From Harriotta raleighana (lineage: Eukaryota), in the NCBI GenBank assembly GCA_050575255.1, contig JBNZDD010013696.1:2212716-2276715 (forward strand): a stretch of DNA of 64,000 nucleotides. The letters are read 5' to 3'. The position numbers were made by a program. Shown piece by piece: positions 33,001-36,000 of the stretch. The stretch's first letter is position 1. Each line of letters starts with the position of its first letter.

Positions 33001-36000
33001 TAGGACATCAGCAATGAATGATGGAACTAATAACATGTCACTTCTTTAACGTGTATATCTCCTGTAATGGATGTGATCTTCATGAGGGCATCTCAGTTAC
33101 AGCAACAACAACAAAAACACACACCAGGAAAATCAATTCAAAACACCCAGCTTTCTCCGTTTGAAGAATTGAACTCTTTTCGTAATTGTGACTTGATTCA
33201 TCCAAATAAAGATTAGAACCATTTTGCTAACTGGCTCACAGACACACATACTGTAGCGTACCTTATGGAGAATGCAAATGGTTTCTGACAACGCAAAGCA
33301 ACTAGAAATGACTAGAGAAATTGCATCAACCGATGCTTATTATTTTTAGCAACAGGCAAATACACTAATTTGGAACTGATTCCAGATCTTACGGCTCGTA
33401 AAGGGTTTAAATCTAACCTCCATCCCCCCTGAAGACTGAGTTACAGTTTAATCAGATGAACCCTGCAGTATGTTAACTCAGCAGGCTGGATTTAAGATAT
33501 CAATCTGATGCCAGGATTTGTATTACGTACAATTTTAAGTAAGATATTTGAATCTCGGTGATCCAGTTAGATAGCAGCTTTTTGTTCACTCAATGCCAGA
33601 TATAAAATGGTACAGGACTGGCTGGAGATGGCTATGATTTCAGACTTGGAGCAGTATTCTATATTTCTCTCAATGCATTATATTGAATTCCTGCAAAACC
33701 AAATTCCAACAATAGATAACAATGTTGCTGCATTCCCCCAGTCTATTGTGGATTAGCAGTTTGCAACAGAATGCACACAGCACTGTGGGACATCCTGCCG
33801 ACGTGAAAGGCGCTAATACAACTGAAATTTTGTATTGTATTAAGTTGGCCAGAGAGCAAGTGAATATATAGCCTCCNTGCACACAGCACTGTGGGACATC
33901 CTGCCGACGTGAAAGGCGCTAATACAAGTGAAATTTTGTATTGTATTAAGTTGGCCAGAGAGCAAGTGAATATATAGCCTCTAAAAGAAATAGAGAAATT
34001 GCATTTATTTAGTGCAATATTGAAGCCAAGTTGAAGTCCTGACCTTCTGTAAAAAGAGGGGGAGTCAGCTCATGCTGTGTTGGGGAGACTGTCTGGTGGG
34101 TATGGAAGGGGCATTCTTCATTCATCCAAAACAATCTTGTGTCCTTGTGAGTGACATGTTTGTGCATACAAGCAGAAACTTGGTGGTGGGGGTGGGGGAA
34201 TCAATAAATCACACCAAGTTTTTATTGTGGGAATCATGATACTCTTGAAAAATTTGCTGGTATCCATTTTATATATGCATGAAGCCCATTTACCCCAAAC
34301 ATAGACAGTCATTTTTGAATTAATACGTGATAGAATGTAAAGGAACAGCAATTTAGAATATTTTACATCAGTGAGACGAAGGTAATACATTGAAGGTGGA
34401 AACCAAATCATTTTGCCCAACATTGTAATCCAAGAAATTTACACACTGTTTTTTTCCCCTCCTTATTGAAATTCACATTGTGCTCGCAGTGTATTTAGAA
34501 GACAAATATGTTTAGCAACAATGAACTCTGGTCAAAGCCAATATAATCCATTAGAGCACAGCAAATAGCGGGGATATGCATTTCTTTACCACGAATCCAA
34601 GATGAAATAATTATACAGAGATAAATGAACAAATTATAATATTTTTTCAACCTCAGTTTATTCACTCGCTGCAATAATTTAAAACCACCGAACCATTTCC
34701 CTTTACATACACAGCAGAGAAGTTTCCTTTAATATGTTTTTATGCTCTTCTTTTTTATTGCTAACTTCAATGGGAGTAGGTCACTGGAAAGGTAAGATGG
34801 TAATTGTGTTCCAGTTGGTTTTTGTCCAGTTTTTTTTTACGTAGACAATGTATTCTTCTGCCAGCTGTCTTCTTAATTTTAGTTTTTTTCATCTGTCACA
34901 TTCTTAAATTGCAACTTAATCTTTGAAGCATTTCCACATTTATTTTTGCATAAAATCTGCAATGAAAAATAAAATCTACAATGAATCAGGAGCTTAAATT
35001 TGACTCATTATGTGGAGCATAATTTGAAACAGGACCCAACATATTTTCACCCCCCAATGTAATTTGCATTTCAAAATACGTTTTCTGTTTCTCGAACTCG
35101 TAGATGATAAATAATGAAAAGGCTGTTTTTTTACCTTTGATTTGGTTTAATTCTCTGGCCAAGGAAAGCCCCAAAGCATTATCAATTGTAACAGCTCAAT
35201 GAAAGTTTTCACTAGAACAATTGATGTGGAGTCAATATTGTGAATTCAGCCAATATTCAAGGTCCTAGATTATTTCTGTAGGAGTGGAGTGCTATTTGTG
35301 TTTTGCTTCTTGTGGCAAGCATGTTGCATGCAATGATTCAAAGAAAAGTATTATCTGAATATTGCCCTTCGCATTGTGTACAGTTATTGCTGGCAATTTG
35401 GTCGGGTCAGTGGAAGGTAAATTGGTCTCTGGGTATTTCAAAAGTAACTCAAAGCTGCTTTTTGCAGCAAGACGTAAATATAGTTAAGATAGCTAAATTA
35501 TGAATGTTCAGTTTAGCTGGTAAATATGATTGTATTTTGTTTTTGGTTTAATAGTATTTCTGAATAATTAACTAATTATACTGCTTGACCGAGAAATCAT
35601 TATTCCATGAAAACATTATCGACCACTCATTTTGCCCCTCTTCTGATCAAACACGCAAGTGTCAAAGCTAATAATGGAATACGAACCCTTGGTAACTTGG
35701 AAAAATATTACCCAAATAGAATCAGATAGATAAACAGCATTCAGTGTGATCTGACTCTATTAAAAGGACAGTTTATTCAATGAATTGCAAATTGATTTTA
35801 ATGTAGAAAAGTGTAAGAAAATGTGACCCCAGAATGAGAAATGAAAATAGCATAATCTGGACAAGAAACAGTATTTGAGAGTGGAAAGATGGATTTGGAT
35901 TATTATTGACAATAATTGGTAATTTCCGTTAATGTTACAGCTATTCCCAAAAACCTAATAGGATAACAGTTACCTATAACTTTGACTCAAGTTGTTGAAA

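What the first reader, a model, noticed from the sequence alone, without database searches (positions are those of the whole stretch)
34750..34800. CHL1 orthologue has the RSLE neural microexon
Seen: a 12-nt AG/GT-bounded exon GTCACTGGAAAG that converts FGEYSD to FGEYRSLESD, preceded by a U-tract, TGC (34759) and CTAAC. Established: RSLE is the neuron-specific microexon of L1CAM, NrCAM and neurofascin that creates the YRSL AP-2 endocytosis signal, and mammalian CHL1 is described as lacking it. UGC close to the 3' splice site is the SRRM4/nSR100 signature. Inference: ancestral CHL1 had the microexon and lost it later. It is invisible to ORF tracks and easily missed in annotation.
Basis: partly seen in the sequence, partly recalled or inferred. 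Interest (0 to 1): 0.75.

Follow-up and report, generated by a model that had tools for sequence, protein, structure and literature searches.

The report
Chimaera CHL1 keeps the RSLE microexon
A 12-base mini-exon that gives the nerve-cell adhesion protein L1 its uptake signal is also intact in the CHL1 gene of a chimaera, which fits an old feature kept in cartilaginous fishes and not seen in the bony-vertebrate CHL1 proteins sampled.

Summary
GTCACTGGAAAG lies at 34780-34791, with AG before it and GTAAGA after it. It sits in the 7278-nt intron between the exon ending ..FGEY+AG (29337) and the last coding exon (36616). In phase it reads R-S-L-E and restores S. About 6e-5 such sites are expected by chance in that intron.

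The gene is a CHL1 orthologue from a holocephalan that is not the Callorhinchus milii reference: 92-99% identity per exon, and a CHL1 clade with 100/100 support.

The best outside support comes from elasmobranch CHL1 models. Three of 17 cluster representatives carry GSLE at the same junction. One A-to-G change in the split codon explains both their G in the skip form and their G in the inclusion form.

None of 6 C. milii representatives and none of 98 bony-vertebrate CHL1 representatives show the insert. That sample is biased and incomplete.

Inclusion in mRNA, neural specificity and SRRM4 dependence could not be tested. The UGC motif alone is weak evidence. No paper describing this exon in CHL1 was found.

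Verdict: a real, conserved cassette microexon and a new member of a known kind, of moderate interest.

The parts
10325..10504 (+). CHL1 exon, second half of an FN3 domain (C. milii P0007 residues 925-984)
   Evidence: tblastn 93% identity to C. milii CHL1. Pfam fn3 E=0.0027, below the curated cut-off. AG/GT bounds read.
20844..20951 (+). CHL1 exon, first half of the last FN3 domain (108 nt, a multiple of 3). Absent from C. milii isoform X2 (P0005).
   Evidence: tblastn 97% to P0007 and no match for P0005. Bounds.
21324..21485 (+). CHL1 exon, second half of the last FN3 domain (162 nt, a multiple of 3). Absent from P0005.
   Evidence: tblastn 94% to P0007 and no match for P0005. Bounds.
22768..22899 (+). 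CHL1 transmembrane and juxtamembrane exon (..KRNKGGKYS + G)
   Evidence: tblastn 98% to P0007. Bounds. An identical second copy at 24656-24787 lies inside a perfect 1887-nt duplicate next to a single N.
29265..29337 (+). CHL1 cytoplasmic exon (V)KDKEDARADPEAQPMKEETFGEY + AG. It donates the Tyr and the first two bases of the split codon.
   Evidence: Sequence read. tblastn 92% to C. milii CHL1. Pfam Bravo_FIGEY profile positions 9-33.
34740..34779 (+). 3' splice-site region of the microexon: pyrimidine tract 34740-34758, TGC at 34743 and 34759, CTAAC at 34761-65, purine-rich spacer, AG at 34778-79
   Evidence: Pyrimidines are 18 of 20 at -24..-43 but only 9 of 20 at -4..-23, the most displaced tract of the 7 exons compared.
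34780..34791 (+). Candidate cassette microexon GTCACTGGAAAG, read as (AG)G TCA CTG GAA AG(T) = R S L E (S)
   Evidence: expected by chance 5.9e-5 in the intron. The same 4-residue insert, as GSLE, is present at this junction in 3 of 17 elasmobranch CHL1 representatives.
34792..34797 (+). 5' splice site GTAAGA, preceded by AAG
   Evidence: By my own comparison with the recalled consensus MAG|GTRAGT, 8 of 9 positions match.
36616..36835 (+). Last coding exon: (S)[12 protein letters not shown]...FIGQY...STATSPVNA, with the stop codon at 36833-35
   Evidence: 99% identity to C. milii CHL1. Pfam Bravo_FIGEY E=2.1e-17.

Best explanation
The 12 bases at 34780-34791 are the CHL1 copy of the cytoplasmic RSLE cassette microexon of the L1 family, kept intact in a holocephalan.

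When the exon is skipped, the tail reads ..FGEY-S-DNED and has no Y-x-x-hydrophobic signal. When it is included, the split codon AG|T (Ser) becomes AG|G (Arg) and the tail reads ..FGEY-RSLE-S-DNED. This creates YRSL, the tyrosine-based signal that in L1 binds the mu2 chain of AP-2 and drives clathrin-dependent endocytosis. The result, YRSLESDNED, matches 9 of 10 residues of L1's YRSLESDNEE, which also overlaps the ezrin-binding site and holds a casein kinase II site.

Shown here: the sequence, its phase and splice signals, its improbability by chance, CHL1 orthology, and an equivalent insert in annotated elasmobranch CHL1 isoforms.

Inferred: that it is spliced in this species, that inclusion is neuron-enriched and helped by SRRM4-type factors, and that it confers AP-2 binding on CHL1.

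Evolutionary reading: the microexon predates the split of the four paralogues, was inherited by CHL1, is retained in cartilaginous fishes, and was lost or silenced somewhere in bony vertebrates.
For: 1. Anatomy. A 12-nt exon with AG and GTAAGA bounds sits in the intron between the FGEY exon and the last exon, in the right phase.

2. Chance. 5.9e-5 expected in the intron; one hit in the window on + and none on -; 0 hits in 10 Mb of simulated sequence.

3. Orthologue evidence. In the unbiased list (the query was the last exon only), 3 of 17 elasmobranch CHL1 representatives read FGEY-GSLE-SDNE and 14 of 17 read FGEY-G-DNE. The three are Hypanus sabinus P0009, Scyliorhinus canicula P0022 and Rhincodon typus P0023. 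One change of the split codon (AG to GG) predicts both the S-to-G of the skip form and the R-to-G of the inclusion form. This is what a shared microexon starting with G and ending with AG would give.

4. Paralogues. In the same list, 10 of 77 named NRCAM-type and 4 of 11 named L1CAM representatives carry YRSLE, including C. milii NRCAM P0031.

5. Gene identity. The last exon is 99% identical to C. milii 'neural cell adhesion molecule L1-like protein'. All 120 best hits of that protein are named CHL1 or NCHL1. In the tree of 28 named proteins, the 14 CHL1 rows form one clade at 100/100, with chondrichthyans sister to bony CHL1. Exon-wise tblastn sums are 332-567 bits for CHL1 references against 139-308 for paralogues.

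6. Mechanism in L1. RSLE plus the preceding Tyr forms the AP-2 mu2 signal, and removing the exon abolishes AP-2 binding and endocytosis (passages read in PMC2173551, PMC4810158 and PMC2956685). [quoted passage not shown]

7. Splice architecture. The pyrimidine tract is displaced (18 of 20 at -24..-43), there are two UGC motifs and the 5' splice site is strong. Passages read in PMC12871342 describe distal or extended pyrimidine tracts and UGC motifs upstream of neural microexons.
Against: - None of the 6 C. milii CHL1 representatives, the closest species available, contains the insert.
- I saw the elasmobranch GSLE isoforms only as automatic gene models. I cannot tell whether RNA reads support them.
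- No transcript data for this species were available, so inclusion is not shown.
- UGC near the 3' splice site is nearly what chance gives: P(at least 1) = 0.47 and P(at least 2) = 0.14.
- If CTAAC at 34761 is the branch point, it lies only about 16 nt from the exon and the nearer UGC is not between the branch point and the AG.
- The proximal 20 nt before the AG are purine-rich (9 of 20 pyrimidines), so the 3' splice site is weak on its own.
- No nucleotide-level comparison with another genome was possible.
Confidence: 0.8

Rival explanations
1. The 12-mer is a silent relic. It descends from the family's RSLE exon but is no longer spliced into CHL1 mRNA in holocephalans.
For: 0 of 6 C. milii CHL1 representatives carry the insert. 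The proximal part of the 3' splice site is weak, with 9 of 20 pyrimidines. No transcript evidence was available.
Against: Coding phase, all four codons and both splice dinucleotides are intact, and the 5' splice site is strong. An unselected 16-nt pattern would not be expected to survive since holocephalans and elasmobranchs split, which I recall as several hundred million years ago. Elasmobranch models still include the equivalent exon. Exons of 12 nt are commonly missed by annotation (abstract of PMC7821500 seen in the listing).
Confidence: 0.12
2. The exon is real and spliced, but its inclusion is not neuron-specific or does not depend on SRRM4. It could be constitutive, or controlled by other factors.
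For: The UGC count is within chance. PMC12871342 (passage read) reports that a sizeable share of dynamic brain microexons lack UGC motifs, so the motif neither proves nor is needed for neural regulation. In one ray (Hypanus sabinus) the only listed model includes GSLE.
Against: The equivalent exon of L1 is neuron-restricted (PMC2956685 and PMC2173551, passages). Both skip and inclusion forms are annotated among elasmobranch CHL1 models. The displaced pyrimidine tract fits the neural-microexon pattern.
Confidence: 0.3
3. It is a chance match in a long AT-rich intron.
For: The intron holds 21 AG-N12-GT sites, 17 of them stop-free in phase.
Against: Only one of them reads RSLE. The expected number is 5.9e-5 in the intron and 5e-4 per 64-kb strand, and a 10-Mb simulation gave 0 hits. 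The same insert is present in elasmobranch orthologues.
Confidence: 0.01
4. The gene is not CHL1 but another L1 paralogue (L1CAM, NRCAM or NFASC), so an RSLE exon would be expected.
For: The two cytoplasmic exons are closer to NRCAM and L1CAM references (62-74% identity) than to bony-vertebrate CHL1 (27-64%). Synteny could not be checked, because no other gene is recognisable at 37-64 kb.
Against: Per-exon identity is 92-99% to C. milii CHL1. C. milii has a separate NRCAM, P0031. All 120 best hits of the C. milii protein are named CHL1. The CHL1 clade has 100/100 support and each paralogue is its own clade. The FN3 exons match only CHL1 well.
Confidence: 0.01

Closest known systems
L1CAM RSLE exon (called exon 27 or 28 in the papers read)
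   Same: A 4-residue insert directly after the FGEY tyrosine that creates YRSL. The inclusion form here reads YRSLESDNED against L1's YRSLESDNEE as quoted in PMC2956685. It occupies the same position between the FGEY exon and the last exon and uses the same split-codon logic.
   Different: It lies in the CHL1 paralogue. Splicing, neural restriction and AP-2 or ezrin binding are not shown for this gene.
NRCAM RSLE insert, e.g. C. milii NRCAM isoform X4 (P0031)
   Same: FGEY-RSLE-SD in 10 of 77 named NRCAM-type representatives, including a holocephalan.
   Different: NRCAM is a different paralogue (separate clade, 100/99) with a tail ending NAMNSFV. Here the tail ends TSPVNA.
Elasmobranch CHL1 isoforms with GSLE (Hypanus sabinus P0009, Scyliorhinus canicula X4 P0022, Rhincodon typus P0023)
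   Same: Orthologous gene, same junction, same S-L-E-S. YGSL is still a Y-x-x-Leu motif.
   Different: The first residue is Gly, not Arg, because the upstream exon ends GG instead of AG. The Arg of RSLE(pS), the potential 14-3-3 motif described in PMC2956685, is missing. These are automatic models and I did not see the underlying reads.
Bony-vertebrate CHL1
   Same: Orthologue with the same exon junction: F(G/C)EY-S-D(S/N)DEKPLKGS.
   Different: No xSLE insert in 0 of 98 representatives: 76 bird, 5 turtle, 1 crocodilian, 1 monotreme, 14 ray-finned, 1 lungfish. The lungfish model P0130 has a different, longer insert at the same junction. The sample is biased (see the full report).

Membership tests
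L1-family cytoplasmic RSLE cassette microexon | A 12-nt exon in the intron between the exon ending ..F-G-E-Y plus 2 nt and the last coding exon | tested here: met
   34780-34791, between 29337 and 36616.
L1-family cytoplasmic RSLE cassette microexon | In phase it encodes (R)SLE and restores the following Ser, with canonical AG/GT bounds | tested here: met
   AG|G TCA CTG GAA AG|T, with AG at 34778-79 and GTAAGA at 34792-97.
L1-family cytoplasmic RSLE cassette microexon | Inclusion creates a Y-x-x-hydrophobic sorting motif (YRSL) that is absent from the skip form | tested here: met
   Read from the sequence: the skip form is Y-S-D-N and the inclusion form is Y-R-S-L. The motif's role in L1 comes from PMC2173551 and PMC4810158 (passages).
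L1-family cytoplasmic RSLE cassette microexon | The same insert is present in orthologues or paralogues at the same junction | tested here: met
   GSLE in 3 of 17 elasmobranch CHL1 representatives, RSLE in 10 of 77 NRCAM-type and 4 of 11 L1CAM representatives, and 0 of 6 C. milii CHL1 representatives.
L1-family cytoplasmic RSLE cassette microexon | Alternative, neuron-enriched inclusion in mRNA | not testable with these tools
   No RNA-seq or transcript collection for this organism was available.
L1-family cytoplasmic RSLE cassette microexon | Binding of AP-2 mu2 and clathrin-dependent endocytosis of the inclusion form | not testable with these tools
   This needs a bench assay. No complex prediction was run, because it would need the joined tail, a step that was left out.
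CHL1 orthologue group | Groups with named CHL1 proteins and apart from L1CAM, NRCAM and NFASC in a tree | tested here: met
   This was tested through the C. milii protein, which is 92-99% identical per exon. The 14 CHL1 rows form one clade at 100/100. All 120 best hits are named CHL1. Window exons were compared one by one.
CHL1 orthologue group | L1-family architecture (Ig, FN3, TM, Bravo_FIGEY tail) | tested here: inconclusive
   Only the 3' part of the gene is in the window. There are fn3 and Bravo_FIGEY hits and a TM exon. The Ig domains lie upstream of the window.
CHL1 orthologue group | Conserved neighbours (synteny) | tested here: inconclusive
   No Pfam family above its cut-off in open frames of 75 aa or more at 37-64 kb, so there is no neighbour gene to compare.
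SRRM4/nSR100-dependent neural microexons | UGC motif in the region upstream of the 3' splice site | tested here: inconclusive
   TGC at 34743 and 34759, but by chance P(at least 1 in 40 nt) = 0.47 and P(at least 2) = 0.14.
SRRM4/nSR100-dependent neural microexons | Extended or distal pyrimidine tract upstream of the exon | tested here: met
   18 of 20 pyrimidines at -24..-43 against 9 of 20 at -4..-23, the most displaced tract of 7 exons. The feature is described in PMC12871342 (passages).
SRRM4/nSR100-dependent neural microexons | Inclusion depends on SRRM3/4 | not testable with these tools
   This needs a minigene or a knock-down experiment.

The most novel reading that the evidence does not exclude
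The RSLE microexon was present in the single ancestor of all four gnathostome L1 paralogues, and CHL1 inherited it. Cartilaginous fishes still use it, and holocephalans keep the complete L1-like YRSLESDNE(D) module. In elasmobranchs only the Y-x-x-L core is preserved (YGSL), which would point to AP-2 sorting as the selected function. On this reading, bony vertebrates lost the exon on their stem, together with a faster-diverging CHL1 tail (FGEY becomes FCEY in ray-finned fishes) and a shift of CHL1 uptake to an AP-2-independent route. Mammalian CHL1 is reported to be taken up by lipid-raft-dependent endocytosis; I saw only the title of Tian et al. 2012, in the reference list of PMC4810158.
Probability: 0.4. 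Interest if true: 0.5.

Novelty: new member of a known kind. Interest (0 to 1): 0.4.

Why it matters
CHL1 is usually treated as the L1 paralogue without the RSLE/YRSL endocytosis switch. That statement is recalled; I did not see it in print here. An intact copy in a chimaera, matched by GSLE isoforms in sharks and rays, would date the switch to before the paralogues split. It would make CHL1's lack of the exon a secondary loss. It would also give a natural comparison (YRSL against YGSL against no motif) for asking which function of the insert is under selection.

The finding is also a concrete example of a 12-nt exon that gene models of the closest reference species appear to miss. It stays of moderate interest for three reasons. 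The exon type and its mechanism are well known. The elasmobranch isoforms are already in public annotation. Expression in this species is untested.

Tried and rejected
- Synteny. Pfam on 100 open frames of 75 aa or more across the window found only fn3 and Bravo_FIGEY in the CHL1 exons and nothing above cut-off at 37-64 kb. Synteny therefore cannot be used.
- Unnamed representatives. The search of protein representatives with P0005 returned 150 unnamed representatives, many of them giant Ig/FN3 proteins. Being unnamed, they were not used for the tree or for any count.
- NFASC sample. One search gave 119 named squamate NFASC representatives, used for the tree. None carries RSLE after FDY. The query lacked the insert and the list is ranked by score, so this says little about NFASC. 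It exposed the same bias in my bony-CHL1 sample.
- Literature. Paper searches found no paper describing an RSLE or GSLE exon in CHL1 of any species. They also found no open paper stating that CHL1 lacks it. Mualla et al. 2013, Cheng et al. 2005 and Tian et al. 2012 are not held.
- RNA genes. Rfam and ARAGORN found no RNA gene near the microexon.
- Chance test.
- Joined model. Window exons were searched and compared one at a time only.
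Full report
**What is in the sequence**

The window is AT-rich (GC 0.37-0.42). On its + strand it carries the 3' part of one gene. Mapping the Callorhinchus milii protein P0007 onto the window with tblastn, then reading the boundaries, gives these exons:

| Exon | Coordinates | Note |
|---|---|---|
| FN3 | 10325-10504 | |
| FN3 | 20844-20951 | |
| FN3 | 21324-21485 | |
| Transmembrane | 22768-22899 | |
| Cytoplasmic | 29265-29337 | ends ..ETFGEY + AG |
| Last coding | 36616-36835 | (S)[12 protein letters not shown]...FIGQY...TSPVNA, then stop |

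The finding lies in the 7278-nt intron between the last two exons. At 34780-34791 the sequence is GTCACTGGAAAG. It is preceded by TAG and followed by GTAAGA. In the phase set by the flanking exons it reads AG|G TCA CTG GAA AG|T, which is R-S-L-E followed by the restored Ser.

**Is it more than chance?**

The pattern AG|G-Ser-Leu-Glu-AG|GT occurs once in the window, at 34778, and never on the other strand. From the intron's base composition, 5.9e-5 such sites are expected in the intron and 5e-4 per 64-kb strand. A 10-Mb first-order Markov simulation gave none. The intron holds 21 AG-N12-GT sites, 17 of them stop-free in phase, and only this one reads RSLE. In that script the candidates were translated with the two flanking bases and one following base added. 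No other joined step was made.

**Which gene and which organism**

- The last exon alone, searched against longer proteins, is 99% identical to six C. milii representatives named 'neural cell adhesion molecule L1-like protein'. It is 72-81% identical to elasmobranch proteins of the same name and 73% or less to NRCAM.
- Per-exon identity to C. milii is 92-98% in tblastn, which read the last exon at 90% because its match ran past the exon boundary. The window is therefore a holocephalan other than that reference, and it is not human.
- All 120 best hits of the C. milii protein are named CHL1 or NCHL1. They include ray-finned fishes, a lungfish, birds, turtles, an alligator and an echidna, at 52-56% identity.
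- I built a maximum-likelihood tree of 28 named, non-human proteins: 14 CHL1, 5 NRCAM, 4 L1CAM and 5 NFASC. The rows were chosen by hand from the lists. All CHL1 rows fall in one clade with 100/100 support, with the five chondrichthyan rows sister to the bony-vertebrate rows. Each paralogue forms its own clade at 100/99 or better.
- The tool warned that long branches meet at the NFASC join. This concerns the deep arrangement, not the CHL1 clade.
- The window's own exons were not joined. Compared one at a time, they sum to 332-567 bits against CHL1 references and 139-308 bits against paralogues.
- Synteny could not be used, because nothing recognisable lies at 37-64 kb.

**Evidence from orthologues**

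The list is unbiased with respect to the insert, because the query started after it.

| Group (representatives) | With the insert | Form |
|---|---|---|
| Elasmobranch CHL1 | 3 of 17 | FGEY-GSLE-SDNE (the other 14 read FGEY-G-DNE) |
| Named NRCAM-type | 10 of 77 | YRSLE |
| Named L1CAM | 4 of 11 | YRSLE |
| C. milii CHL1 | 0 of 6 | none |

The three elasmobranch rows are Hypanus sabinus, Scyliorhinus canicula X4 and Rhincodon typus. Eight unnamed rows were dropped before the NRCAM and L1CAM counts.

The Gly in both elasmobranch forms is what a split codon predicts if their upstream exon ends GG instead of AG. Then GG|T gives Gly in the skip form and GG|G gives Gly in the inclusion form. One substitution therefore accounts for both differences from the chimaera (Ser in the skip form, Arg in the inclusion form). 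This ties the elasmobranch insert to a microexon that starts with G and ends with AG, like the one here.

Against the finding, none of the 6 C. milii CHL1 representatives has the insert. One of them (P0004) instead reads intron sequence just upstream of the last exon. I also cannot see whether reads support the elasmobranch models.

**Bony vertebrates**

None of the 98 bony-vertebrate CHL1 representatives has an xSLE insert. They comprise 76 birds, 5 turtles, 1 crocodilian, 1 monotreme, 14 ray-finned fishes and 1 lungfish. The lungfish row has a different, longer insert at the same junction.

This sample is weaker than it looks, for four reasons:

- The rows are one representative per 90%-identity cluster, so an isoform differing by 4 residues hides behind its cluster.
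- The list was ranked against a query without the insert and cut at 1441 bits, inside a dense block of bird proteins. Rows with the insert would therefore tend to fall below the cut.
- With an annotation rate like that seen elsewhere (13-36% of representatives), 14 ray-finned rows are too few to exclude the exon.
- Amphibians, coelacanth and therian mammals were not sampled.

The same caveat shows in NFASC. None of 119 named squamate representatives carries RSLE, and that list too was ranked against an insert-free query. That mammalian CHL1 is described as lacking RSLE is my recollection (Holm et al. 1996; Hortsch 2000). I found no open paper saying so.

**How it most likely works**

In L1, the four residues RSLE follow Tyr1176 and form YRSL(E). 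This motif binds the mu2 chain of AP-2 and is required for clathrin-mediated endocytosis. Removing the exon or the Tyr abolishes both, and the exon is present in neuronal L1 but not in non-neuronal L1 (passages read in PMC2173551, PMC4810158 and PMC2956685). [quoted passage not shown] The Ser after RSLE is a casein kinase II site within YRSLESDNEE (PMC2956685).

Here the inclusion form reads YRSLESDNED, 9 of 10 residues the same. The skip form reads Y-S-D-N and has no such signal. I therefore infer that inclusion switches on an AP-2 sorting signal in the chimaera's CHL1. The elasmobranch YGSL keeps the Y-x-x-Leu core but not the Arg.

The cytoplasmic exons of this gene are closer to NRCAM and L1CAM (62-74%) than to bony-vertebrate CHL1 (27-64%). 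This fits a conservative tail in cartilaginous fishes.

**Regulation**

- The 5' splice site AAG|GTAAGA is strong.
- The 3' side has 18 of 20 pyrimidines at -24..-43 but only 9 of 20 at -4..-23. This is the most displaced tract of the seven exons compared.
- Passages read in PMC12871342 describe distal or extended pyrimidine tracts, long branch-point distances and UGC motifs upstream of neural microexons. They also note that many neural microexons lack UGC.
- The two TGC motifs here are close to chance: P(at least 1 in 40 nt) = 0.47 and P(at least 2) = 0.14.
- If CTAAC at 34761 is the branch point, it is unusually close (about 16 nt) and the nearer UGC is not downstream of it. A branch point further upstream is equally possible.

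Neural, SRRM4-dependent inclusion is therefore a reasonable inference, not a result.

**Comparison with what is known, and novelty**

The exon type and its mechanism are textbook for L1. The insert is annotated in NRCAM of the same group of fishes, and GSLE isoforms of CHL1 already sit in public elasmobranch gene models.

What appears to be new is the recognition that CHL1 has the exon at all. Also new is that a holocephalan keeps the full RSLE form while the closest reference annotation, as far as I could see it, does not show it. Seven full-text searches found no paper on an RSLE or GSLE exon in CHL1. Subscription journals and Mualla et al. 2013 were not readable, and preprint supplements were closed, so a prior mention cannot be excluded. 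I file it as a new member of a known kind.

**What stayed open**

- Transcript evidence in this species.
- Nucleotide-level conservation in other genomes.
- Cluster members of the C. milii proteins.
- The point of loss within bony vertebrates.
- Synteny.
Exons were handled one by one.

Noticed in passing
window 22616-24502 and 24504-26390, with a single N at 24503: A perfect (100%) 1887-nt tandem duplicate separated by one N. It contains a second, identical copy of the CHL1 transmembrane exon (24656-24787). It looks like an unmerged contig overlap in the assembly rather than a real exon duplication.
   Followed up: partly
window 20844-20951 and 21324-21485: The two exons of the last FN3 domain are both multiples of 3 (108 and 162 nt). 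They are absent from C. milii isoform X2 (P0005) but present in P0007, so the domain is probably an alternatively spliced cassette pair.
   Followed up: partly
window 29265-29337 and 36616-36832: The cytoplasmic exons are more similar to NRCAM and L1CAM references (62-74% identity) than to bony-vertebrate CHL1 (27-64%). The FN3 exons clearly favour CHL1. This suggests a conservative tail in cartilaginous fishes and a faster-evolving CHL1 tail in bony vertebrates.
   Followed up: partly
window 36598-36615 (end of the intron before the last exon): One C. milii database model (P0004) reads [15 protein letters not shown]. The DDFLF matches the translation of the intron bases directly upstream of the last exon in this window. 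That model therefore uses an upstream acceptor, or is a mis-prediction, in the same intron that holds the microexon.
   Followed up: partly
protein P0130 (Protopterus annectens CHL1 isoform X3), not in the window: The lungfish model has a different, longer insert at the same FGEY/SD junction (FGEYS-IPKWNGLRKTQQYTESIKNRISIN-SDNDEK). It may be another cassette exon or an annotation artefact.
   Followed up: no
window 8711-8764 (+), 13243-13314 (-), 42453-42524 (-), 46593-46664 (-): Four weak Rfam tRNA matches (36.6-40.7 bits) that ARAGORN does not call as tRNA genes. Similar open-frame fragments recur across the window. These are probably tRNA-derived SINE copies in the introns and downstream of the gene.
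   Followed up: no
window 44412-44601, and single N at 30673, 33877, 53085, 62528: A 190-base run of N and several single N positions. They were left as they are. Two of the single N lie in the intron that holds the microexon but not near it.
   Followed up: no
proteins P0370-P0489 (squamate neurofascin), not in the window: None of 119 named squamate NFASC representatives has RSLE after FDY. The list was ranked against an insert-free query, so this may be a ranking artefact rather than a real absence.
   Followed up: no
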